64,000 bases of DNA from Candidatus Woesearchaeota archaeon (GCA_964493885.1 CAZBPV010000004.1:205-64204); one strand, 5' to 3'; counted from the stretch's first letter, positions 32,230 to 63,550 are shown. Translations and numbers: made by a program. The notes: a model not told the origin generated them from the sequence alone.

Positions 32230-35148
32230 TTATTGCAAATGGAATTTTTTTACAACCCAGTCAGCTCCAACAGCATGTGCTATTGTAGATTCTATTTTTT
32301 TCCTTTTTCTTCTTTTTATTTCTTGACGTGAAATAAGCGCAAAAATAAATATTGTTGAAATTAAAATCCACCAATACCAGCAAATAAAATACCTAAACCA
32401 GCAGATTCCAAATAAACAACAACTTTTATTTACTTTTTTAGAAGGTTCAGAAGGATTAGAATCTTCTTCTAGAATCTCAAGATTACCACTTCCTCTTCCA
32501 CTACCTAATTCAATAAAAGAGCATATCTGTGTTTCATTTGGTTTATCTTCACTTGTTCCACAATCATTTGCATCAACACATGTTCTTTCTTGAAGCCCAT
32601 TAATACAAATATCACTCCAGTTGCCGCAACTCCAATCCTCATCGCAATTTGTTACTGAATCTCCTCCGCCCGGACTTCCCCCGTCTGGAGGTGAAGTAGA
32701 ACTCTCCAATGTAATTGGGGTATCTGTCAGCAAGTTAATATCTTTGCTTTCATTTACTGAGATAGTAAAGTTCCCGCTTCTGTAATTTGTTGTATTTAGT
32801 AATAAATCAGGTTCAACATAACCTTGTGAATTTGTAGTACCCTGCCATACTAGATTGCCGTTGCTGTCTGTAATATTAACCTGCTTGTTTGGATACGGCG
32901 TTGTAGTTCCATGATAATATATGTAGACTGGGTAGTATCTTGTGACATTCCCTGAGCTAACTGAACCTGTTGGCGGCATGTCCACTTCTCCATAAATCTT
33001 CGGAGAATCATAAGTTCTTATTTCATTTGTTAGGTTTGAAATTTCGCCAGTGAAATTAATAACAGAATTATCTTGAAGATAAACAACCCCAATTATACTA
33101 GAATTTTCAATCCCAATTTTAATATTGTTTCTTATATCAAATCTATCTCCGCTAAATATAGAATTCTCTATAGATGATATAGAGTTATCAAGAGAATAAA
33201 ATCTAGAAGTACTTGTAGAATTAATAATCTGACTAGTTGAATTCTCTTTTAAATAAATATAATCCTTTAATGTAGAAGTTATTATCTCATGAGTTTTGTT
33301 ACCATAAATACTTAATTGAGAGTTTTCAAAAGTAGTATTGTAAATATTTCCATAACCATGAATTTCTAAATTAAGGTCATATCCGCCCACATTACTTTTT
33401 ATTGTAGAATTTACTGAGGTAAAATTAGCCTCAGAACTTACATTTATTATATAATTTATTGAGGCATCTACCAAGGTTAGGTTTGTATGATTAAGAATAA
33501 ATTTAGAGTTATCTTTGATATTTATATTACTTTTATTTATTGTAAGATTTTCAACAACACAGCTTGAATAAGCACTTCCAGTAAGATTCCAATCTATATT
33601 ACTTCCAGGATAAGTGCAATTTTCACTTCCATTAACTACTTCAATTACCCCCTGAGTGATAAGTGACTCAAAATTAGAGTCATTGCATTGAACCTCAAAA
33701 TCATATATTGCCGGTGTTGTGAAATTATGTATATGTTGGTACACCTCATTATTATATGTAGTATTATAAATTGAGCCATTTACTCTGATAAGACAGTTTC
33801 CTCCTGAGACTGAATTATTATTTGTCCTGTTAGTATAATTCCCATAAAGGGTTATGTTTCTATTTTTTATTGGGTATGGCGATGCAATATAATCTGCTTC
33901 TAATCTTGCACTTAACACTGCTTCTTCTGCATTTATTCTAGGAAAACTCAATTCATTTTCAGGGTCAGTTATGCTCTTTCCAGTTGTTTTTAATTTATCT
34001 TCTATTTGTTTTGGAGTAATGCTTTGATTTTTTAATTTATAATTTTGATACATCAGTGCAGCAGTTCCAGAAACATGCGGAGCAGCCATTGATGTTCCGT
34101 CTTTTCCTCCAAAATTACTTCCAAGAACAGTTGATTGAATATTTACTCCAGGAGCTAATAAATCTAGATTTTCTCCAGTATTGCTATCATCCCAGACATT
34201 ATCATTTTTATCACTAGCTCCTACAGAAGTTGCATTTGGTGAGCATGATGGAAAAGAAATCCCATTGCTTAAATCAATATTCCCTGAAGAAACAACAATA
34301 ATTATATTATTTGCAATAGCACTATTTATTTCATCATCAAAATCAGTTGGACAATTATCCTCGCTATATTCTCCATTATCTCCTAAACTCATACTAATGA
34401 CACTTATATTATATAATGAGGCATTATTTATACACCAATCAATTCCTGCAAGCACAGCATCTCCATCACATCCTCCTCCAGAATTGCATGCTTTTATTGC
34501 AACAATATTTGCCTCGGGAGCAACCCCCCTATAAGTTGAATCATTTGATGCAATAATTCCTGCAACATGAGTTCCATGTGAATTGTCATCCATTGGGTCA
34601 GAATCATTGTTTACATAATCCCAACCAAGAATAACTCTTCCAGCAAGAGCAGGATGATTATAATTAACTCCTGTATCAATTACACATATGCTTTGATACT
34701 TTCCAGTTAGATTTATATTATTTAATTTTGCCTTATTGACATCATCAGCATTGATTAGTGGAGCACTTTCATCAAGATGGATTTGAAGTTTTTTATTCAG
34801 ATAAATTTTTTCTACTTGTGGATTATCTGCCAAATTCTCAAGAGTTTCTTTGTCTGCTTCTCCTGCAAATGCATTAATAATTGAGTATTGGTATTTAACT
34901 TTAAACTCTGGATTTTCCATTAAAATATCTGATTGAATTTCTCTTCCTTCAGATTCTTTCAGCATAACAATAACCTCTACATTTTCAATTTCATTCAGGG
35001 CTTCTATAATTTGATATTCTATTTTTGGGTTATCTGCTAATTTATCCTCTTCAGTAATCCAGCCTGTGAATATCCCTCCAATGCAGAATAATATACCTAA
35101 GACTATCAAGACCATGATAATTTTATTAGCAATTCTGTGGTGTATCAT
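32230..35148 (-). CDS. subtilisin-like (S8) serine protease with long beta-rich Asn/Ser/Thr-rich extension, Cys-rich module and C-terminal TM anchor
   Basis: Catalytic triad contexts VIDTGVNYNHP (Asp), HGTHVAGIIA (His), GTSMAAPHVSG (Ser). N-terminal TM/signal. C-terminal aromatic TM helix plus KRRKRKK. Confidence 0.85.
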   Translation of the reverse strand: MIHHRIANKIIMVLIVLGILFCIGGIFTGWITEEDKLADNPKIEYQIIEALNEIENVEVIVMLKESEGREIQSDILMENPEFKVKYQYSIINAFAGEADKETLENLADNPQVEKIYLNKKLQIHLDESAPLINADDVNKAKLNNINLTGKYQSICVIDTGVNYNHPALAGRVILGWDYVNNDSDPMDDNSHGTHVAGIIASNDSTYRGVAPEANIVAIKACNSGGGCDGDAVLAGIDWCINNASLYNISVISMSLGDNGEYSEDNCPTDFDDEINSAIANNIIIVVSSGNIDLSNGISFPSCSPNATSVGASDKNDNVWDDSNTGENLDLLAPGVNIQSTVLGSNFGGKDGTSMAAPHVSGTAALMYQNYKLKNQSITPKQIEDKLKTTGKSITDPENELSFPRINAEEAVLSARLEADYIASPYPIKNRNITLYGNYTNRTNNNSVSGGNCLIRVNGSIYNTTYNNEVYQHIHNFTTPAIYDFEVQCNDSNFESLITQGVIEVVNGSENCTYPGSNIDWNLTGSAYSSCVVENLTINKSNINIKDNSKFILNHTNLTLVDASINYIINVSSEANFTSVNSTIKSNVGGYDLNLEIHGYGNIYNTTFENSQLSIYGNKTHEIITSTLKDYIYLKENSTSQIINSTSTSRFYSLDNSISSIENSIFSGDRFDIRNNIKIGIENSSIIGVVYLQDNSVINFTGEISNLTNEIRTYDSPKIYGEVDMPPTGSVSSGNVTRYYPVYIYYHGTTTPYPNKQVNITDSNGNLVWQGTTNSQGYVEPDLLLNTTNYRSGNFTISVNESKDINLLTDTPITLESSTSPPDGGSPGGGDSVTNCDEDWSCGNWSDICINGLQERTCVDANDCGTSEDKPNETQICSFIELGSGRGSGNLEILEEDSNPSEPSKKVNKSCCLFGICWFRYFICWYWWILISTIFIFALISRQEIKRRKRKKIESTIAHAVGADWVVKKFHLQ

Positions 35149-56457: not shown

Positions 56458-59268
56458 TTATTTCTTAGAAGCAGTATTTAATCTTGCTGTAACTTTCTTT
56501 ACTAATTTCATTTCCTTTAAGTCATCTCTTTTAAAGTAGACTATCCCTACTAATATTACAAGCATTATTGCTCCAAAGACAATCCAGAATATTATCTTCC
56601 CTGTTTTTCCCAGCTTGTTTATTAACCCAAGGATACTTGCTCCTGTTCCACTTCCTGTTTGATCTTCATTTTCATTAATTTCTGATGCAGTATCATTCCC
56701 AACAGCAGAGGTAGTTTGAATGTCTCTTGTAGGCACTGCTTCACTAATCTCTTTTAAGAATAGTTTTCCAAGAGTGCTTTTGTATTCTTCATATTTTAAT
56801 TCTAAATCATACACATTGTCAGAATCCAAATCTTCTTTTTTTGTCTCCCCAATACTTAATTCTTCAGTTATAACTTTGCTTGAGATAGTTACTTTTATCT
56901 TCTGCTCAGTTAAGCTATCTACTAAAAGAGAGTGAGATTTTCCATTAATATTAAATTTTAAAATATATCCAGCTTTTACAAATTTACCTATTCCTTTTAC
57001 AATATCTGCATCTGAAATCTGCAAGACTGGTTTAGTAGTTAAGTCATCTGTTGTACTCTCCTCCTCCTCATCCTCGTCAGAACTTGAAGAAACACTTAAT
57101 GTTATTTCGCTAGAGGTTCCGTAATTTCCAGCAGAATCATAACATTCTATTTCCCAATCATAATCTCCTGCAGACATTGTTTTTGTTATTGTATTTGTTG
57201 CATTTACTGTTATTGTAGTGTCTGTGCTTTCTATATCTTCATCAAGTATAAGACTGCAGTTTGCTATCGAGCTTCCATCAGTAACTGTAAATTTAAATGC
57301 GACACTTCCTGTATCAACTTCATCCTCATCATCAGGTTCACTCAATGTAATTACAGGAGCAACTGTATCAAATGTAATTGTATTATTTGAATCTGCATAA
57401 AGAATATTTAATTGACTATCATAAGAATAACAATTCCATAAATATTTTCCATTGCTTGAAAGATTGTAAGTGAAATTGCTTTGATTAGATACCCCTGAAA
57501 CACTTTCTGTGCTATTATAAACCAAGGTTCCTAGAGAATTCCAGATTTTTAATGTTGTATTTGTAAGATTAGCTACAGAATTCTGCACTGAACAACTAAA
57601 ACTAGTTAAATTTACTTTTTTGTAAGTATTATTGCTTGGAGAAGAAAGATTAACTGAAGTTGCTCCTATTTTTAAAGTATAATTTGAATCACTTCCATAA
57701 TCATTATTTCCTTTTGAATCATATGAAAGGCAGTTCCATTTGTAAGTCCCATTGCTTAAGCTCACATCTATTTCCCATTCAAGAGAATTATTTGTAGCAT
57801 TTACATTAGTTTCATCTATTAAATAATTACTTGAATTCCACAAATAAAATGTTAAATTTTCTAATTGCAATGCATCTTCAGCAGAGCAGATTAATGTCTG
57901 ATTTCCGCTGGCATTTAAATGATTATCACTAGGAGAAATTATAGTTACTTCAGGAGCAGATTCATCAATCTCTAATAATGTAGTGTAAATATCTATTCTT
58001 GAATAAGTAACCCCGCTTCCAGCATCATAAATTCTAAATCCTGAATCATTTAATGCATCTTCCATTTGGCTTGGAGTATATTCTGAACTGCCTTCTAATG
58101 CTCTGAACTGGCTGATTAATGCAATTGCCCCTGCTGCATGAGGTGTTGCCATTGAAGTTCCACTTAGCAACCCATATCCAGAAGGAATTGTTGAGTTTAT
58201 ATTCACTCCAGGAACAATTAATTGAACTAAAGAATTTCTTCTGTAATCAAAAGTTGAATCATCTTTTTGTATGCTTCCAATAGGAATTGCACTTTCAACA
58301 CATGCAGGTGCAGAGATGTATGTAGTGCTTGCAGGAGTATTTCCAGAAGCAATTACAACTGCAATGCCATTACTAACCGCATTATCTATTTCATCTGCTA
58401 AAGGGTCGCTATTGCAATAATCACTATTCTCACTAGCATCTCCCAGACTCATGCTTATTACAGAGATATTATACACAGATGCATTATCAACACACCAATC
58501 AATTCCTTCCGCTATGTCATCATCCCAAAAAGTACCTGTTGAATTTGAAGCTTTTATAACAACAAGATTTGCTCCAGGAGCAACTCCTTTTATGCTTCCA
58601 TTTGCAGCAGCAATTCCAGAAACATGTGTTCCATGATAATGAGCATCCATTGGATCTGAGTCAGTAGTATTGCACCAAATATTATCTGCGCAATAATCTA
58701 TTCCACCAATAACCTTGCATCCTGTTCCAAAGCATCCTCCTAAACTAGGATGACTATAATTTACCCCAGTATCTATAATACAAATTGTTTGTCCTATTCC
58801 AGTCAGATTTATTCCATTTAACTGCACATTCCATGTTTCATTAGCAGAAATCATGCCAACAGAATCCTGAAGAACAATCTCTCTTGTTCCAACAATATCA
58901 ATTGATTCAATATTAGAGTTGTTTTTTAATTCTTCAAGCTCTTCTTCAGAAACAATAGCAGAAACTTTATCATTAAACTCATGCCTTATATTAATAGATT
59001 CTTCAATTTCTGCCTTGACATCAGAGGCAATTCCTCTCTTACCTACAGCAGAATCCTTAAATTTAATATAAACTCTAACATTATTGCCTTTTTCTATTTC
59101 TTCTGTTACATCTTCACTAACTTGCACTCTAGCATCAGTGCCTTCTTTAATAATATACCCATTAATACTAGAATCATTATCTATTTTTTGAGCTATAAAA
59201 AAAGTCAGCAATAAAATTGCTAAAATGATAAATACACCACTTCTTTTCATGATTAAACTAAATTTCAT
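56458..59268 (-). CDS. second subtilisin-like (S8) serine protease with Ig-like repeats and C-terminal TM anchor
   Basis: IIDTGVNYSHP, HGTHVSGIAA, GTSMATPHAAG. Acidic linker DEDEEEE. C-terminal TM helix. Paralogue of 32230-35148. Confidence 0.85.
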   Translation of the reverse strand: MKFSLIMKRSGVFIILAILLLTFFIAQKIDNDSSINGYIIKEGTDARVQVSEDVTEEIEKGNNVRVYIKFKDSAVGKRGIASDVKAEIEESINIRHEFNDKVSAIVSEEELEELKNNSNIESIDIVGTREIVLQDSVGMISANETWNVQLNGINLTGIGQTICIIDTGVNYSHPSLGGCFGTGCKVIGGIDYCADNIWCNTTDSDPMDAHYHGTHVSGIAAANGSIKGVAPGANLVVIKASNSTGTFWDDDIAEGIDWCVDNASVYNISVISMSLGDASENSDYCNSDPLADEIDNAVSNGIAVVIASGNTPASTTYISAPACVESAIPIGSIQKDDSTFDYRRNSLVQLIVPGVNINSTIPSGYGLLSGTSMATPHAAGAIALISQFRALEGSSEYTPSQMEDALNDSGFRIYDAGSGVTYSRIDIYTTLLEIDESAPEVTIISPSDNHLNASGNQTLICSAEDALQLENLTFYLWNSSNYLIDETNVNATNNSLEWEIDVSLSNGTYKWNCLSYDSKGNNDYGSDSNYTLKIGATSVNLSSPSNNTYKKVNLTSFSCSVQNSVANLTNTTLKIWNSLGTLVYNSTESVSGVSNQSNFTYNLSSNGKYLWNCYSYDSQLNILYADSNNTITFDTVAPVITLSEPDDEDEVDTGSVAFKFTVTDGSSIANCSLILDEDIESTDTTITVNATNTITKTMSAGDYDWEIECYDSAGNYGTSSEITLSVSSSSDEDEEEESTTDDLTTKPVLQISDADIVKGIGKFVKAGYILKFNINGKSHSLLVDSLTEQKIKVTISSKVITEELSIGETKKEDLDSDNVYDLELKYEEYKSTLGKLFLKEISEAVPTRDIQTTSAVGNDTASEINENEDQTGSGTGASILGLINKLGKTGKIIFWIVFGAIMLVILVGIVYFKRDDLKEMKLVKKVTARLNTASKK

Positions 59269-59325: not shown

Positions 59326-59661
59326 ATGAGAATCAAAATTAAGAACAAAGAAATTGAAATAATTGCCAAAAAGTGCAATTCTCTTCGGAAAATCACTGGA
59401 TTAATGTTTAGAACAAGCAAAACAGAGCCATTATTATTTGAATTTAATAATTCCTGCCAGGCAATTCATTCTTTTTTTGTGTTTTTTCCATTTTATGCAA
59501 TATGGCTGGATAAAGATAATAAACTAATTGAAATAAAAAAAGTAAAACCTTTTACATTCCATGTCAAGCCAAGCAAGCCATTTTCAAAATTATTAGAAAT
59601 TCCTGTAAATGAGAAATATGCTGAGATTATTACAACCCTAAGCAACTCTTATAAGACATAA
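59326..59661 (+). CDS. DUF192-like protein
   Basis: GLMFR...AIHSFFVFFPFYAIWLDKDNKLIEI pattern. Confidence 0.5.
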   Translation: MRIKIKNKEIEIIAKKCNSLRKITGLMFRTSKTEPLLFEFNNSCQAIHSFFVFFPFYAIWLDKDNKLIEIKKVKPFTFHVKPSKPFSKLLEIPVNEKYAEIITTLSNSYKT

Positions 59662-60136
59662 TACTTTTATATTTCCACAAAGCACTTACTTTCGAGATTA
59701 AAAGGTTACTTCCAAAATCCCCTCTTCTTTTTGAATCTTGAATTATAAAGCAAAAATTATTTCCATCAAATTTTGAAAGATACTGGGAGTGCATGGCCAT
59801 GCTTATATCAACATTTTCATCAAAACCTTCTTTAATATTCCCTTTTGTAATAATATAGTCTCTTTGCCATACTCTTTCCCCAGAATCACTATTATAAAAT
59901 CTTAGTAATAATCTTGCATCTTTAGGAAGTTTTTGAATAATTTCATTTCTTGGTATTAAATCTATAAATCTCTGGAAATCTTCTTGTGTTGCAGGTTCAT
60001 ATACAATCGGTTGATATACTGCATTAGTACTACCTGAAGTAAACTGGTTTTTTGGGTGATAATTTGAATAAATAGCAATTGCTATTAAAATAACTATTGT
60101 CAACACCAAGGCAATTTTATATTCTTTATTTTTCAT
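59630..60136 (-). CDS. hypothetical membrane-anchored protein
   Basis: Track ORF trimmed to MKNKEYKIALVL (ATG 60134-60136), because the upstream 42 codons run through tRNA-Trp and its repeat. Confidence 0.45.
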   Translation of the reverse strand: MKNKEYKIALVLTIVILIAIAIYSNYHPKNQFTSGSTNAVYQPIVYEPATQEDFQRFIDLIPRNEIIQKLPKDARLLLRFYNSDSGERVWQRDYIITKGNIKEGFDENVDISMAMHSQYLSKFDGNNFCFIIQDSKRRGDFGSNLLISKVSALWKYKSIMSYKSCLGL

Positions 60137-60202
60137 AAAATGGACGCGGAGTTTTAAAATAAATTCTTCAATCCACGCCTCTCTGCAAAAAATGGACGCG
60201 GA
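60137..60202. repeat. 15-nt exact direct repeat (60137-60151 and 60188-60202) duplicating the tRNA-Trp 3' end plus T-run
   Basis: AAAATGGACGCGGAG occurs twice on the + strand, with a 36-nt spacer. Confidence 0.8.
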
Positions 60203-60264
60203 GGGAATCGAACCCTCTTCTTCTGGGCTGGAGCCAGATATTACTGCCAGTGAACTACGCATCC
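60193..60264 (-). tRNA. tRNA-Trp (anticodon CCA), weak D-stem
   Basis: GGATGCG..TCTGG-CTCCAGC-CCAGA-AGAA-GAGGG-TTCGATT-CCCTC-CGCGTCC-A. The D stem has only 3 pairs. Confidence 0.8.
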
Positions 60265-61317
60265 GTCAATGAATTCACAGATTTTGCCTAATTCTGTTTC
60301 ATCAAGTATAATAATCCTGTTTTTATTAATTAAAAACTTATCTTTTCTGGGTTTATTTCTGCAAATTAACACTCCCAAACAACAACCACTATCCTCAAGA
60401 TATTTGTTTAATTGTTTTATCTGAGAGTTTGAAATATCTTTACTTTGATAATCTTTGATTTCTATTACTGCTTTTTTGCCTTTTCTTTCCAGGATAATAT
60501 CCGCAATCCCCCTTCTTGTTTTAACCAATCTATTTACCTTCCCATAGCTCGTTAATTTAATCGCAATTTCTGATTCAAAATCCTTTGCTCTTTTTCGAAT
60601 CTCTTTTAAACCAACCCCGTATAACTTTAATCTTTCAAAAGGGAAGTTTATTCCTGCTTTTTTATAGGCTTCAAATATCCCTTTTTTAAATAAATCCTGA
60701 ACATGAGTCTTACATGATAAGTTTATTTCTCTTTGAGTTGCTAAAGGATTTTGTTTAATAAAATTTAAGACATCTCTTTGTTTTTTTATTCTCCATTTTT
60801 TGCTTCCATTAATTTTTTCTATTCCAGCCCTTCTATAAATTTCATCTACATTCTTAAAAAATTTATATGGATTAACATGCAATTTTTCCATTATCTCTGG
60901 GATCGTTATAATTGGATTTTCTCTAACCAGTTTTATAATCAAATTTATTTTTTCTTTTTTTGTTCTTTTATCTATCCTTCTAGGATATTTTATTCCAGCT
61001 TTTTCATAAGCCTCCTTTATACTTTTAAAAACATTTGAAGGATTTATTTTAGTCTTTTTAGCAATTGTATGCCCTCCTGCTTTGGGATTTTTTTTAATAT
61101 AATCAATAACTATTTTTCTCCTTTCATCTTTTGTTTTTCTTTCAAAATTTCTTGGACTTTTTATTCCAGCTTCTTCAAATGCTTCTTTAAGCCCTTTTTT
61201 GAAAATCCTTTCTGGGTGCAGTTTAGTCCCTTTTCTAATTTCATTATAGGTTGCTTCTGGATTTTTCCTAAGATAATTAAAAACAATACTTCTTTTATCA
61301 GAATCAGTTTTCTTCAT
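60241..61317 (-). CDS. four tandem ~57-aa HTH-like repeats fused to a C-terminal PD-(D/E)xK (Hjc/Mrr-type) nuclease domain
   Basis: The repeat pattern I..YIKKNP......I.K.TK..P...FK.I.EAY.KAGI occurs four times (nt 60610-61290). The C-terminal FESEI...GIADIIL...AVIEIKD...GVLI is a canonical nuclease core. The last 8 codons overlap the tRNA-Trp 5' end. Confidence 0.55.
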   Translation of the reverse strand: MKKTDSDKRSIVFNYLRKNPEATYNEIRKGTKLHPERIFKKGLKEAFEEAGIKSPRNFERKTKDERRKIVIDYIKKNPKAGGHTIAKKTKINPSNVFKSIKEAYEKAGIKYPRRIDKRTKKEKINLIIKLVRENPIITIPEIMEKLHVNPYKFFKNVDEIYRRAGIEKINGSKKWRIKKQRDVLNFIKQNPLATQREINLSCKTHVQDLFKKGIFEAYKKAGINFPFERLKLYGVGLKEIRKRAKDFESEIAIKLTSYGKVNRLVKTRRGIADIILERKGKKAVIEIKDYQSKDISNSQIKQLNKYLEDSGCCLGVLICRNKPRKDKFLINKNRIIILDETELGKICEFIDGCVVHWQ

Positions 61318-61371
61318 GATAAATAGAAATAACGGGTATATTTATACTTTTCCGTTAAACAGTAAAACCAA

Positions 61372-62055
61372 CTATTTTATTGCCTTTATCTCTCTGATTT
61401 CATCTTCAGATATAGCGCATCCCTTGAATTTTAAGGCATATAAAAGAGCATCAAGAACTGTCTTACCATCTTTAACTTCTATTAATCCCTTTTTCCATGC
61501 AACATACATTAACTCAGTTGAACGAATAAATCTGAATCCCCTAAAATACTTAAAATCCTTTTTTTCAATCTTTACTGATGTACTTAATTTTTTTGTAAGA
61601 AGGTCTTTTAAATTCTCAGGTTTTTCACCTAGCATCCTTGTAGTTCTTTCATCAATTGCAATTACATGAGGCACTTTTTTATTTAATAGTAGTCTGCTCA
61701 GTGCCAGGCAAGAAGCTTCTCCATCATGTATTATTGTTATATGTTCTCCATTGCCTTTAAACATAGTATTTGCAATGTTACTCATAGAATTCTTTTCAAT
61801 ACTTATCTCACTCTCTTGTATTCCCAAAGAATCTGGCATTTCCAAAACCTTCATATCAAGTAATCTCTTTATTCTTAATGCTTCAAGTTCAAACCTTTTT
61901 ACAGTTAATGGCTTGTCAATTACTTCATATTTTACTTCTTTTGTTACAATAAATTTTTCATCAAAAACTTTTTTTAATTTTTCAAGTTCTTCCACAAGCC
62001 CGTTCATAGACAAACTAATTAGTGTGCTTGAATCAAATAAAATTGCGCCTTCCAT
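61372..62055 (-). CDS. PIN-domain protein (DUF3368-like) with C-terminal extension
   Basis: Acidic PIN positions in ILFDSSTLISL, KEVKYEV, HDGEASCLA, AIDERT. The start overlaps the upstream stop (TAATG). Confidence 0.55.
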   Translation of the reverse strand: MEGAILFDSSTLISLSMNGLVEELEKLKKVFDEKFIVTKEVKYEVIDKPLTVKRFELEALRIKRLLDMKVLEMPDSLGIQESEISIEKNSMSNIANTMFKGNGEHITIIHDGEASCLALSRLLLNKKVPHVIAIDERTTRMLGEKPENLKDLLTKKLSTSVKIEKKDFKYFRGFRFIRSTELMYVAWKKGLIEVKDGKTVLDALLYALKFKGCAISEDEIREIKAIK

Positions 62056-62498
62056 TATATCCTCTTTTGAACTGATTTTAGATATTCTTTATTTTTAGTT
62101 CGCAAATATTTAAACATAAAGTCTGTTACCATCTGGCACTCTCTTTTTATTTTTTCTTGATGATTGTATTTGTCCTTGGCAAAATGTCCAGGAGAATTAA
62201 AACTTTTTTCAATACCCTCATTATATCCTCCTGAGATTATCTTAACATTCTTAGAGGCCTTGATTTCCCTGCCTTTTTCATATTTGTAATAATAAATAGT
62301 AATCAAGACAATTTTTTTATTAACTAAAACTATTTCATAATATGCTTTTTTTAATTTATCAGAATAAACCTCAATATCAATGTCAGAAAAATTCTTAAGT
62401 GGTTTAGTTGCAGTTGAACCTCTGATTAATATTACTTTTCCTTTCCCGATTTTTTTGATGTATTCTAAAACCTGCTCTTTATTTTTGAAAGTTTTCAT
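62055..62498 (-). CDS. minimal nucleotidyltransferase (Pol-beta superfamily)
   Basis: IRGSTATKPLKNFSDIDIEV matches the hG[GS]x9-13DhDh motif. 4-nt overlap (ATGA) with the upstream gene. Confidence 0.6.
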   Translation of the reverse strand: MKTFKNKEQVLEYIKKIGKGKVILIRGSTATKPLKNFSDIDIEVYSDKLKKAYYEIVLVNKKIVLITIYYYKYEKGREIKASKNVKIISGGYNEGIEKSFNSPGHFAKDKYNHQEKIKRECQMVTDFMFKYLRTKNKEYLKSVQKRI

Positions 62499-63055
62499 TC
62501 AAACATCTCCATTGCCAGTTTAACTCTTGCCTTGGCGTCCATTGTCTGCGATACTGGAACATCACTAATTCCTGTCTTTCCCGCATAATCTGCTAATTCA
62601 TACATTGTAATCCCAAGAAGCTTGGCAGTCTGTTCCATAGAAATACCGTGTTCATAAATTCTTGAAGCCTTGTTAATCTCTGCGCTTCTAAAAACTTCTT
62701 GAATATACTTTTTTAATTTTCCAGAAATTTTGTTTATTGCTTTCCTTACCATCTCAAAATCACTTCTAAATGATTTTTCATCATTTTTTTTAATATCTTC
62801 AATTGCTCTATCAAGCGAAGTTAAAACAAGTCTGTAAAAACTACTCCAGCCATTAAGTTCTCTGTAATCTTTTCTCTCCATTATTTTACTAAGAGAGTAT
62901 ACAATTACTGCAACAGTAATATTGTCTGGGTCTTGAGTAAGTGAAGCAGTATTAGTTGTCTGGTTACTCAACAATTTTATTCTAGAAGAATCGTCATTTT
63001 TTATTGCTTCCTTTGTTTCTTCAAGAATTCTTAATATGTTTTCTCTTTCCTTCAT
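62495..63055 (-). CDS. helical protein with C-terminal UPF0175-like HTH (putative antitoxin/regulator)
   Basis: The C-terminal GISMEQTAKLLGITMYELADYAGKTGI resembles UPF0175 antitoxin HTH. First gene of the coupled operon. Confidence 0.4.
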   Translation of the reverse strand: MKERENILRILEETKEAIKNDDSSRIKLLSNQTTNTASLTQDPDNITVAVIVYSLSKIMERKDYRELNGWSSFYRLVLTSLDRAIEDIKKNDEKSFRSDFEMVRKAINKISGKLKKYIQEVFRSAEINKASRIYEHGISMEQTAKLLGITMYELADYAGKTGISDVPVSQTMDAKARVKLAMEMFE

Positions 63056-63169: not shown

Positions 63170-63550
63170 ATGATAATGACAAAGAATGTTTTACTTGATA
63201 CAAGTTTTATTCTAATGGCAATTAGGAGTAATATTGATTTTATAGAGGAGATAAAATTCTTAGGACTTACTATGTTAGTTCCAACTCAAGTCATTGATGA
63301 AATAAAGGGAATTGTAAAATCAAAAAAGAAACTTAAATTTAGAGATGAAGCAGCTCTTGCATTAAGGATAGTTGATATCCCAAGTTTGTCTAAAGTCCAT
63401 CTTAAAAGTAAAAATGTTGATAATGGAATTGTACTTTTTGCTAAGGAGAATAAGGATGTGATTGTTGCGACTATGGATAAGGAACTTAAATCTAGGATTA
63501 AAAATCAGAAACTTATTGTCAGGGCTGGGAAAAAACTGGAGATTTTATAA
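63170..63550 (+). CDS. PIN-domain protein, Fcf1/VapC-like
   Basis: LLDTSFIL, VPTQVIDEI, DNGIVLFA, VATMDKELK are the acidic PIN positions. Confidence 0.6.
   Translation: MIMTKNVLLDTSFILMAIRSNIDFIEEIKFLGLTMLVPTQVIDEIKGIVKSKKKLKFRDEAALALRIVDIPSLSKVHLKSKNVDNGIVLFAKENKDVIVATMDKELKSRIKNQKLIVRAGKKLEIL

What the first reader, a model, noticed from the sequence alone, without database searches (positions are those of the whole stretch)
60241..63055. Coupled HTH / minimal-NTase / PIN operon followed by a 4x HTH-repeat Hjc/Mrr-like nuclease, abutting tRNA-Trp: candidate novel TA or defence module
Three genes are translationally coupled: 62495-63055 to 62055-62498 by ATGA, and 62055-62498 to 61372-62055 by TAATG. 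They combine a UPF0175-like HTH protein, a Pol-beta-type minimal nucleotidyltransferase and a DUF3368-like PIN nuclease. That merges the partners of two different classical TA types (UPF0175-PIN and MNT-HEPN) into a three-gene unit with no HEPN gene. Fifty-four nt downstream lies a 358-aa protein with four tandem HTH-like repeats and a canonical PD-(D/E)xK core (E...D...EIK). Its last 8 codons are the first 24 nt of tRNA-Trp. A further PIN gene follows at 63170. The architecture and the tRNA-adjacent position are typical of accessory defence islands. I do not recognise the combination.
Basis: partly seen in the sequence, partly recalled or inferred. Interest (0 to 1): 0.65.

Follow-up and report, generated by a model that had tools for sequence, protein, structure and literature searches.

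The report
Conserved DPANN HTH–PIN pair with passengers
The proposed three-gene toxin/defence module is really an old, vertically inherited HTH–PIN gene pair next to tRNA-Trp in Pacearchaeota/Woesearchaeota archaea, with the nucleotidyltransferase as a one-off passenger and the nuclease as a gene that is often lost.

Summary
All sequence facts in the finding are correct: the ORFs, the ATGA and TAATG overlaps, the 54-nt spacer, the four HTH repeats, the E…D…ExK core and the 24-nt overlap with tRNA-Trp. The interpretation as a three-gene TA/defence unit in an accessory island does not hold.

Across about 170 related loci from DPANN archaea the conserved backbone is: PIN_9 (Fcf1-like, beside Rpb7–Spt4–S24e–S27ae) ⇠⇢ 186-aa HTH protein – [slot A] – 227-aa PIN protein – [slot B] – tRNA-Trp.

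- **The pair.** The 186-aa and 227-aa proteins co-occur, co-diverge (r = 0.66) and are single-copy within this window. They abut or overlap in 43 of 78 loci.
- **Slot A.** It holds unrelated genes in the other 35 loci (GNAT, small membrane protein, His-phosphatase, methyltransferase, NUDIX and others). The window's NTase occurs there in no other locus and belongs to a tiny family of 32 clusters.
- **The nuclease.** The 358-aa 4×HTH/Mrr-like nuclease fills slot B in a minority of genomes. It co-diverges with the PIN protein (r = 0.73) and abuts tRNA-Trp in at least 82 % of its occurrences.

The most likely reading is a lineage-fixed, VapBC-like regulated RNase pair, with the NTase and the nuclease acting independently of it. 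Interest is modest.

The parts
63170..63550 (+). PIN_9 (COG1412, archaeal Fcf1/Utp24-like PIN protein, 126 aa). It is divergently transcribed from the pair. It is a housekeeping-type neighbour and not part of a TA module.
   Evidence: Pfam PIN_9 E=5.9e-10, above the cut-off. A homologue lies divergently upstream of the 186-aa gene in nearly all related loci, followed there by Rpb7, Spt4, S24e and S27ae. Classified as archaea-specific Fcf1-like in PMC5499597.
63056..63169 (.). 114-nt divergent intergenic region between PIN_9 and the 186-aa gene. It presumably holds both promoters (A/T-rich TATA-like stretches). This is an inference.
   Evidence: Sequence. The divergent arrangement is conserved in relatives.
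62495..63055 (-). 186-aa partner protein ('HTH186'). It has an N-terminal six-helix bundle (residues 1-125) carrying the invariant motif LSNQTxNTASxTQDPDNI, and a C-terminal UPF0175/HTH_7-like helix-turn-helix.
   Evidence: 1,810 homologues, almost all exactly 186 aa and 65-85 % identical among the 120 listed. Alignment A2. Model pLDDT 82.8. Sub-threshold UPF0175 in 21/31 and HTH_7 in 22/31 members. No informative PDB relative by sequence or fold.
62055..62498 (-). 147-aa minimal Pol-beta-type nucleotidyltransferase ('NT147'). It is a passenger gene in variable slot A between the pair.
   Evidence: NTP_transf_2 22.9 bits, Polbeta 22.3 bits. The motif RGS..x..SDIDIE is kept in most members of the family alignment. 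11/16 members hit Polbeta/NTP_transf_2. Only 32 representative clusters in 1.84 billion. Absent from slot A in all other loci. The homologue in L038 is coupled to gyrA. None in viral contigs.
61372..62055 (-). 227-aa PIN-fold nuclease ('PIN227') with an extra C-terminal helical module (about residues 160-227). Invariant acidic residues are D8, E44, D47, E58, E113, D135, E136 and D202.
   Evidence: 2,536 homologues; the 120 listed are 59-84 % identical and about 227 aa. Alignment A1. Model pLDDT 85.8. Foldseek best matches are archaeal PIN proteins 1ye5/1y82 and VapC toxins.
61318..61371 (-). 54-nt spacer with a TATA-like GTATAAATA about 30 nt upstream of the nuclease ATG. It is probably the nuclease's own promoter, giving a leaderless mRNA. 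This is an inference.
   Evidence: Sequence. The same 54-nt spacing occurs in L088 and L089.
60241..61317 (-). 358-aa nuclease ('NUC358'): four tandem ~57-aa winged-HTH-like repeats followed by a PD-(D/E)xK (Mrr_cat-like) domain. It occupies variable slot B.
   Evidence: HTH_24 E=1.9e-10; PDDEXK_3, Hjc and NA-iREase1 below threshold. Relatives carry precomputed PF13412 and PF04471. Invariant E248/D273/E286-x-K288. Repeats aligned. Weak matches to PADLOC PDC-M36A (1.4e-6) and to PHROG Holliday-junction resolvase families.
60193..60264 (-). tRNA-Trp(CCA), intron-less here. It is the conserved 3' anchor of the block. Its first 24 nt are the last 24 nt of the nuclease ORF.
   Evidence: ARAGORN, Rfam tRNA 52.8 bits. 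tRNA-Trp starts within about 20 nt of the nuclease stop in 55/67 related loci. It follows the PIN gene on the same strand in 53/63 PIN-anchored loci.

Best explanation
**What the region is.** It is a stretch of vertically inherited backbone shared by Pacearchaeota and Woesearchaeota (DPANN). The order is PIN_9 ⇠⇢ HTH186 – [slot A] – PIN227 – [slot B] – tRNA-Trp.

**The functional unit.** The unit is the two-gene HTH186/PIN227 pair. PIN227 is a metal-dependent PIN endoribonuclease with an intact acidic centre. HTH186 is its obligate partner, built like a UPF0175-type antitoxin with an added conserved helical domain. The layout is that of a VapBC-like (COG2886/COG2405-type) type II module. However, the pair is fixed at one syntenic locus, its two partners are equally conserved, and it tolerates unrelated genes between them. 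I therefore infer a domesticated, partner-regulated RNase of cellular RNA metabolism, not a mobile addiction or defence cassette.

**The NTase.** The 147-aa NTase is a rare accessory gene that landed in slot A in this genome only. Nothing links it functionally to the pair.

**The nuclease.** The 358-aa 4xHTH/Mrr-like protein is an ancestral gene in slot B that has often been lost. It probably has its own promoter, is tied to the 5' end of tRNA-Trp, and most likely cuts DNA independently of the pair.

**Shown versus inferred.** Shown: the folds, motifs, synteny, linkage statistics and co-divergence. Inferred: the RNase activity, the physical interaction of the pair, the domestication, and the nuclease's DNA target.
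For: - **Pair linkage.** 78 of 85 PIN-anchored loci carry HTH186 upstream on the same strand. 43 of them have no gene between the two.
- **Co-divergence of the pair.** r = 0.66 over 106 loci, Mantel p = 0.001, with mean identities of 54.5 % and 55.5 %.
- **Distribution and copy number.** 276 matches in the species-genome scan encode a relative; the 80 kept are all DPANN. There is no paralogue in the 64-kb window.
- **Synteny.** The pair sits beside PIN_9, Rpb7, Spt4, S24e and S27ae on one side, and in the closer relatives DUF192 and the S8 peptidase on the other.
- **Slot A is heterogeneous.** GNAT 11, ~90-aa membrane protein 10, His_Phos_1 8, SAM methyltransferase 5, plus single NUDIX, GT2, deacetylase and beta-helix genes. 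These inserts are also coupled by 4-nt overlaps (L005).
- **The NTase is not linked.** It is in slot A in no other locus, its family has 32 clusters, and its one homologue is coupled to gyrA.
- **PIN fold and active site.**
- **Nuclease linkage.** PIN227 lies within 1.6 kb upstream in 34 of 52 nuclease-anchored loci. tRNA-Trp is at the nuclease's 3' end in 55 of 67. Co-divergence with PIN227 gives r = 0.73.
- **No island signature.** Composition is flat and no tRNA-derived (att-like) repeat or other convincing repeat pair brackets the block.
- **Literature.** A module of 51 mostly uncharacterised families shared by Pacearchaeota and Woesearchaeota is reported in PMC8204110.
Against: - No experiment or transcript data exist for any of these proteins.
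- Neither partner reaches a Pfam threshold for UPF0175 or DUF3368, so TA ancestry rests on fold, layout and weak matches.
- The interaction between HTH186 and PIN227 was not modelled.
- A chromosomally fixed but still toxic TA module would also be inherited vertically.
- My loci were found through conserved peptide patterns, so the true prevalence in the lineage, and the absence elsewhere, are not measured.
- Slot A cargo is enriched for small modifying enzymes, so some functional association cannot be excluded.
Confidence: 0.62

Rival explanations
1. One reading: HTH, NTase and PIN form one three-component TA or anti-phage module. The NTase would act as a second antitoxin or a modifier (MNT-like), and the whole would sit in a tRNA-linked defence island together with the nuclease.
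For: The three genes are translationally coupled in the window. The NTase keeps a G-S...D-x-D/E motif. Its weakest-but-best PDB sequence match is the MNT protein HI0073. PIN families with extended three-component layouts are known (PMC5499597).
Against: The NTase is absent from the slot in all ~105 other loci with the pair. The slot is empty in 43/78 loci or filled by unrelated genes. The NTase homologue in L038 is coupled to gyrA with no PIN or HTH nearby. There is no HEPN. NCBIfam MntA scores 14.8 bits against a cut-off of 60. PADLOC finds nothing for the three proteins. Gene overlaps are routine in this genome. Synteny is conserved and there is no island signature.
Confidence: 0.05
2. HTH186/PIN227 is still a true type II toxin-antitoxin (addiction or stress) module. 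PIN227 would be growth-inhibitory, HTH186 would neutralise it and autoregulate the operon, and the module would persist vertically because its loss is lethal.
For: The antitoxin-like HTH gene is upstream and overlaps the PIN gene in many loci. There are UPF0175-like matches. The fold is VapC-like and the acidic residues are intact. UPF0175 is reported only with COG2405 PIN toxins (PMC5499597).
Against: The pair has one fixed locus and long-term co-divergence. Classical TA modules, by my own knowledge, tend to be multi-copy, patchy and mobile; I did not test that contrast here. The putative antitoxin is as conserved as the toxin and has a constant length. 45 % of loci carry 1-3 foreign genes between the partners, which would disturb the stoichiometric coupling. 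Both proteins carry extra, strongly conserved domains that are not part of the ~75-position UPF0175 Pfam profile or of the ~130-150-aa PIN structures they match.
Confidence: 0.22
3. The 358-aa nuclease is a selfish or defence-type free-standing endonuclease (Mrr-like type IV restriction enzyme or homing-type nuclease). It would occupy a hot spot just 5' of tRNA-Trp and would not be an ancestral cellular gene.
For: It is present in only about 4 of 63 PIN-anchored species genomes. Relatives carry Mrr_cat and there is a PADLOC PDC-M36A match at 1.4e-6. Multiple HTH modules would suit recognition of a long DNA target. The same slot holds an HTH-HNH endonuclease (PHROG 2e-23) in 5 other loci. The nuclease plus tRNA-Trp unit also occurs away from the pair in 10-14 of 52 loci. 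att-like scars at tRNA-Trp occur in 7/123 loci.
Against: Pairwise divergence tracks that of PIN227 (r = 0.73, Mantel p = 0.001). The protein is more conserved than PIN227 (59 % against 51 % mean identity). There is no methyltransferase partner and there are no flanking repeats. I did not scan the viral collection for it.
Confidence: 0.3
4. The pair acts on tRNA-Trp itself, either processing the co-transcribed precursor or cleaving the tRNA in a regulated way. This would explain why the tRNA gene follows the PIN gene so closely.
For: tRNA-Trp lies on the same strand within 60 nt of the PIN stop codon in 20 of 63 loci and within 4 kb in 53 of 63. Many VapC toxins cleave specific tRNAs (PMC5499597). 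Repurposing of TA PIN RNases for tRNA processing has been proposed for HARP, which is absent from DPANN (PMC6380272).
Against: The evidence is adjacency only. RNase P protein genes are present in related genomes. Slot B can hold several kb of unrelated genes. The nuclease-tRNA unit exists without the pair.
Confidence: 0.1

Closest known systems
UPF0175 (COG2886) / DUF3368 (COG2405) VapBC-like type II toxin-antitoxin pairs
   Same: An HTH-protein gene lies directly upstream of, and often overlaps, a PIN-fold nuclease gene. The C-terminal HTH resembles UPF0175. The PIN fold is VapC-like with conserved acidic residues.
   Different: Neither protein reaches the Pfam thresholds. HTH186 has an extra 125-residue conserved helical bundle, and PIN227 has an extra ~65-residue C-terminal module. 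There is a single fixed syntenic locus with vertical co-divergence across a whole lineage. Unrelated genes are often inserted between the partners.
MNT-HEPN (type VII MntA/HepT) modules
   Same: NT147 is a minimal Pol-beta-type NTase of similar size with a G-S...D-x-D/E motif. It has a weak sequence match to the MNT protein HI0073.
   Different: There is no HEPN partner here or in L038. The NCBIfam MntA score is far below its cut-off. NT147 is not linked to any fixed neighbour.
Mrr-type (type IV) restriction endonucleases and archaeal Hjc-like PD-(D/E)xK nucleases
   Same: N-terminal winged-helix DNA-binding module(s) are followed by a C-terminal Mrr_cat/PD-(D/E)xK domain with an E...D...ExK core.
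   Different: There are four tandem HTH repeats instead of one. The 3' end conservedly overlaps or abuts tRNA-Trp. The protein co-diverges with neighbouring cellular genes. Matches to Hjc, PDDEXK_3 and Mrr_cat are below threshold for the window protein itself.
Archaeal Fcf1-like PIN_9 (COG1412) in the RpoE/Spt4/S24e/S27ae cluster
   Same: The 126-aa ORF at 63170 matches PIN_9 above threshold. In relatives it lies next to Rpb7, Spt4, S24e and S27ae.
   Different: Nothing notable. It is an ordinary member and not a TA toxin. Within the window the contig ends before Rpb7 is reached.

Membership tests
UPF0175/DUF3368 (COG2886/COG2405) type II TA | The toxin belongs to Pfam DUF3368 (PF11848) above threshold | tested here: not met
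   No DUF3368 hit at E<=1 for the window protein or any of 29 family members. The only DUF3368 marks are precomputed: listed for most relatives, and shown as faint in four of the five look-ups that list them, unmarked once at L088.
UPF0175/DUF3368 (COG2886/COG2405) type II TA | The toxin has a PIN fold with the conserved acidic catalytic residues | tested here: met
   The AF2 model (pLDDT 85.8) matches PIN proteins and VapC toxins. D8, E44/E58, E113 and D135 are invariant.
UPF0175/DUF3368 (COG2886/COG2405) type II TA | The antitoxin belongs to UPF0175 (PF03683) above threshold | tested here: not met
   13.5 bits against a cut-off of 27.9 for the window protein. 21/31 members match below threshold, best E = 0.0036.
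UPF0175/DUF3368 (COG2886/COG2405) type II TA | The antitoxin gene lies immediately upstream of, and is coupled to, the toxin gene | tested here: inconclusive
   Met in 43/78 related loci. Not met in the window or in 35/78 loci, where 1-3 other genes intervene.
UPF0175/DUF3368 (COG2886/COG2405) type II TA | The toxin arrests growth and the antitoxin neutralises it | not testable with these tools
   This needs expression assays.
MNT-HEPN (type VII) TA | A minimal NTase with the G-S...D-x-D/E motif | tested here: met
   NTP_transf_2 22.9 bits (cut-off 21). The motif is kept in most members of the family alignment.
MNT-HEPN (type VII) TA | An adjacent HEPN toxin gene (Rx4-6H) | tested here: not met
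   No HEPN Pfam hit in any neighbouring protein. The neighbour in L038 is gyrA. NCBIfam MntA scores 14.8 bits against 60.
Mrr-like type IV restriction endonuclease | A PD-(D/E)xK / Mrr_cat catalytic domain | tested here: inconclusive
   The E248...D273...E286-x-K288 motif is invariant and relatives carry precomputed PF04471. The window protein itself reaches only sub-threshold PDDEXK_3, Hjc and NA-iREase1.
Mrr-like type IV restriction endonuclease | An N-terminal winged-helix DNA-binding domain | tested here: met
   HTH_24 E = 1.9e-10, present as four tandem repeats.
Mrr-like type IV restriction endonuclease | Modification-dependent DNA cleavage | not testable with these tools
   This needs biochemical assays.
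Accessory defence island at a tRNA | The block is variably present between relatives, is flanked by att repeats or an integrase, and its neighbours are known defence genes | tested here: not met
   The pair is conserved and syntenic. No copy of the tRNA 3' end lies elsewhere in the window at up to 3 mismatches, and the only short partial copy lies on the tRNA's other, 3' side. PADLOC gives one weak hit only. GC content is flat. Only the NTase and the nuclease are variable.
Archaeal Fcf1-like PIN_9 (COG1412) | A Pfam PIN_9 match above threshold and a neighbourhood with RpoE(Rpb7)/Spt4/S24e/S27ae | tested here: met
   39.8 bits against a cut-off of 26.3. The synteny is seen in L001-L005, L088 and L089.

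The most novel reading that the evidence does not exclude
The HTH186/PIN227 pair is a TA-derived RNase system that became a fixed, possibly essential, RNA-processing or RNA-surveillance device of a whole DPANN lineage. It would be co-transcribed with tRNA-Trp and act on it or on other stable RNAs. Slot A would serve as a docking site for interchangeable RNA-end-modifying enzymes (NTase, GNAT, methyltransferase, NUDIX, His-phosphatase) that tune the system.
Probability: 0.12. Interest if true: 0.7.

Novelty: new variant of a known kind. Interest (0 to 1): 0.33.

Why it matters
If the pair is a domesticated toxin-antitoxin descendant, it would be a lineage-wide example of a selfish RNase module turned into a cellular function in genome-reduced DPANN archaea. 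That parallels the origin proposed for HARP-type RNase P.

It also gives names and anatomy to three uncharacterised families of Pacearchaeota/Woesearchaeota that have no family-level Pfam model: the 186-aa helical-bundle+HTH protein, the 227-aa PIN protein, and the 4xHTH-Mrr-like nuclease.

Practically, it warns that tight gene overlaps in compact genomes do not by themselves indicate functional modules.

Tried and rejected
**Searches that found nothing useful**
- Sequence searches of all four families against the PDB, both single sequences and profiles, gave nothing informative.
- The fold search of the 186-aa model against the PDB returned only generic and designed helical bundles.
- The viral-library fold search was lost by the server and the model was then gone.
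- PADLOC and NCBIfam gave no support for a defence or TA assignment.
- PHROGs gave only weak matches for the window proteins.
- The viral-contig scan for the NTase found no relative.
- The bacterial-type promoter/terminator scan was uninformative: promoter-like sites were below shuffle expectation and there were no terminators.
- Literature searches found no paper on this pair.

**Ideas rejected**
- **An element integrated at tRNA-Trp that carries the block.** The only tRNA-derived repeat lies 41 nt downstream of the tRNA's 3' end, which is the wrong side.
- **PIN227 as a HARP/PIN_5 RNase P.** There is no PIN_5 Pfam hit, and RNase P protein genes are present in relatives.
- **The HTH186 N-terminal domain as a cryptic HEPN.** There is no Rx4-6H motif and no HEPN hit.

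Full report
**1. Observation**

- Four minus-strand ORFs lie at 62495-63055 (186 aa), 62055-62498 (147 aa), 61372-62055 (227 aa) and 60241-61317 (358 aa). A plus-strand 126-aa ORF lies at 63170-63550.
- The junctions are ATGA (4-nt overlap) and TAATG (1-nt overlap), and the spacer before the 358-aa gene is 54 nt.
- tRNA-Trp(CCA) lies at 60193-60264 on the minus strand. Its first 24 nt encode the last residues of the nuclease (…IDGCVVHWQ*).
- The four ~57-aa HTH-like repeats align well, and E248…D273…E286-x-K288 is invariant in 31 homologues.

- The NTase barely passes Pfam (22.9 bits against 21).
- The HTH matches UPF0175 and HTH_7 only below threshold.
- The 'PIN' has no Pfam hit at all.
- An AlphaFold model built on 29 homologues (pLDDT 85.8) does match archaeal PIN proteins (1ye5, 1y82) and VapC toxins. 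The acidic residues D8, E44, E58, E113, D135 and E136 are invariant. So it is a PIN-fold protein with an added C-terminal helical module.

**2. The organism and the neighbourhood**

Homologues of the 227-aa, 186-aa and 358-aa proteins come from Pacearchaeota, Woesearchaeota and Nanoarchaeota MAGs. The first three neighbourhoods I looked at already showed the pattern. S27ae–S24e–Spt4–Rpb7–PIN_9 sits on one strand. Diverging from it is the 186-aa gene, then a variable gene or none, then the 227-aa gene.

The 'further PIN gene' at 63170 is therefore the archaeal Fcf1-like PIN_9/COG1412 protein (Pfam 5.9e-10; PMC5499597). The partial ORF after it in the window is the homologue of a 144-aa ORF that lies between PIN_9 and Rpb7 in L001.

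**3. The pair is the unit and the NTase is a passenger**

A scan of one genome per species found 276 matches encoding a PIN227 relative. I fetched 80 loci, all DPANN.
- In 78 loci that carry both genes, the 186-aa gene is upstream of the 227-aa gene on the same strand.
- In 43 of these nothing lies between them (gaps from about −7 to 104 nt).
- In 35 there are one to three extra genes, in all but one locus (L017, where only short ORFs were found) on the same strand.

These extra genes are a miscellany: GNAT acetyltransferase (11), a ~90-aa membrane protein (10), histidine phosphatase (8), SAM methyltransferase (5), and single cases of NUDIX, GT2 glycosyltransferase, polysaccharide deacetylase and a 658-aa beta-helix protein. 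They are spliced in with the same 4-nt overlaps as in the window, for example in L005.

A homologue of the window's NTase occupies the slot in no other locus, in either the PIN-anchored or the nuclease-anchored set.
- The NTase family is tiny: 32 representative clusters among 1.84 billion.
- It is absent from viral contigs.
- Its only homologue in my loci is translationally coupled to gyrA.
- There is no HEPN gene, and the NCBIfam MntA model scores far below its cut-off.

Overlapping genes are routine here. In the window 9 of 44 same-strand junctions overlap and 5 more are within 20 nt. The 'three-gene unit that merges two TA types' is thus an accident of this genome.

**4. The pair looks fixed, not mobile**

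- Both proteins are strongly conserved. Among the 120 best homologues listed, HTH186 is 186 aa in almost all and 65-85 % identical; PIN227 is about 227 aa and 59-84 % identical.
- Their pairwise identities co-vary across 106 loci (r = 0.66, Mantel p = 0.001), with the same mean identity of about 55 %.
- There is one copy in the window.
- GC content is flat across the region.
- PADLOC finds nothing for the pair.

HTH186 has a confident six-helix N-terminal domain carrying the invariant motif LSNQTxNTASxTQDPDNI, followed by the HTH. This domain has no informative relative in the PDB by sequence or fold.

The layout (HTH gene upstream of an overlapping PIN gene) and the weak UPF0175 signal point to descent from the COG2886/COG2405 TA type. 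In that type UPF0175 is reported exclusively with COG2405 PINs (PMC5499597). However, several features fit a domesticated, partner-regulated RNase better than an addiction module: the fixed locus, the equal conservation of both partners, the added domains, and the frequent insertion of foreign genes between them. This step is inference.

A set of 51 mostly uncharacterised families shared specifically by Pacearchaeota and Woesearchaeota has been described (PMC8204110). These proteins fit that picture.

**5. tRNA-Trp and the nuclease**

In PIN-anchored loci with enough downstream sequence, tRNA-Trp follows the PIN gene on the same strand in 53 of 63. It lies within 60 nt in 20 of them. So tRNA-Trp is the 3' anchor of the backbone, and the space before it is a second variable slot. 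Besides the 358-aa nuclease, that slot holds an HTH–HNH endonuclease (5 loci; PHROG 2e-23), membrane proteins, a flavodoxin-like protein, another NTase, a NUDIX, a SpoU-type methyltransferase and others.

The 358-aa nuclease is itself a conserved family of about 355 aa, 55-79 % identical among the 120 homologues listed, and many of these relatives carry HTH_24 and/or Mrr_cat. I anchored a metagenome scan on it.
- Of 52 assessable loci, PIN227 lay directly upstream (<200 nt) in 25 and within 1.6 kb in 9 more.
- In 4 loci PIN_9 lay directly upstream with no pair present.
- In 10 loci the context was different.
- tRNA-Trp starts within about 20 nt of the nuclease's end, often overlapping it, in 55 of 67 loci. 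It carries an intron in 23 of those. Another 8 loci gave odd intron calls at the same place.

Nuclease and PIN227 divergences are correlated (r = 0.73, Mantel p = 0.001), and the nuclease is the more conserved of the two. Yet only about 4 of 63 PIN-anchored species genomes have it. The simplest reading is an ancestral gene at this site that has been lost many times.

A selfish or defence-type nuclease that exploits a hot spot 5' of tRNA-Trp remains a serious alternative. In its favour are the HNH occupants of the same slot, the Mrr_cat domain, and a PADLOC PDC-M36A match at 1.4e-6.

A TATA-like GTATAAATA about 30 nt upstream of its ATG suggests its own promoter and a leaderless mRNA. This is inference.

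**6. Is it an island?**

- No copy of the tRNA 3' end occurs elsewhere in the window at up to 3 mismatches, and no convincing repeat pair brackets the block.
- The only tRNA-derived repeat is an 18-nt duplicate of the tRNA's 3' end, 41 nt downstream of the tRNA. That is on the other side from the block. Similar scars occur in 7 of 123 related loci.
- The genes beyond it (a membrane protein, DUF192 and an S8 peptidase) are syntenic in the closest relatives.

**7. Verdict**

- **Right:** the domain calls, a linked TA-like HTH–PIN pair, and a nuclease linked to the pair and to the tRNA.
- **Wrong:** the three-gene module, the 'merged TA types', the extra PIN as a toxin, and the defence-island setting.

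What remains of interest is moderate. There is a lineage-fixed VapBC-like pair with new domains, co-oriented with tRNA-Trp, with two insertion slots. There is also an unusual 4×HTH–Mrr-like nuclease whose 3' end is welded to tRNA-Trp. No function has been tested for any of them.

Noticed in passing
window 60134-60151 and 60186-60203: An 18-nt direct repeat with 1 mismatch. The last 11 nt of tRNA-Trp plus a T-run are duplicated 41 nt downstream of the tRNA, ending at the ATG (60136) of the next gene. Similar duplicates lie 29-101 nt downstream in 7 of 123 related tRNA-Trp loci. They look like att-type scars of integration and excision at the tRNA's 3' end.
   Followed up: partly
L005:6719-7213, L008:7722-8216, L021:6759-7235, L039:4784-5260, L074:3355-3663: In five related genomes the slot between the PIN gene and tRNA-Trp holds a 158-164-aa HTH + HNH endonuclease (PHROG HNH families, E = 2e-23) instead of the 358-aa nuclease. 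The position 5' of tRNA-Trp therefore repeatedly hosts free-standing nuclease genes.
   Followed up: partly
window 59630-60262 (-): The mechanical 210-aa ORF overlaps tRNA-Trp. The real gene most likely starts at ATG 60136 (MKNKEYKIALV…, a ~168-aa membrane protein). Homologues aligning from about residue 40-60 onward precede DUF192 in relatives.
   Followed up: partly
L090-L169 (tRNA-Trp next to the nuclease gene): tRNA-Trp carries an intron in 23 of the 55 related loci where it was called. The window's copy is intron-less. Default ARAGORN missed or mis-named the intron-containing copies.
   Followed up: partly
L038:10218-10700 (-) and L038:7786-10221 (-): The only homologue of the window's NTase among the fetched loci (42 % identity) overlaps the start of a gyrA gene by 4 nt, so this small NTase family has no fixed partner.
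   Followed up: no
L086:3961-4860 (-), L047:7686-8162 (+): Other, unrelated Pol-beta-type NTase genes (299 aa and 158 aa) sit in slot B of two related loci. Small NTases recur as cargo around this backbone without being homologous to one another.
   Followed up: no
window 56458-59268 (-) and 32230-35148 (-): There are two large secreted S8 (subtilisin-like) peptidase paralogues in the window, 39 % identical over about 440 residues. The one at 56458 is syntenic with the block in close relatives.
   Followed up: no
alignment A1 (PIN227 family): 8 of 29 family members give weak matches (best E = 0.035) to Pfam DUF7523, a family of unknown function. This may be the nearest described sequence family.
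   Followed up: no
L059:3437-6866 (slot B): One related locus has a 3.5-kb insertion between the PIN gene and tRNA-Trp holding several genes, most on the opposite strand and none annotated here. It also has a tRNA 3'-end duplicate downstream. It may be a small integrated element.
   Followed up: no
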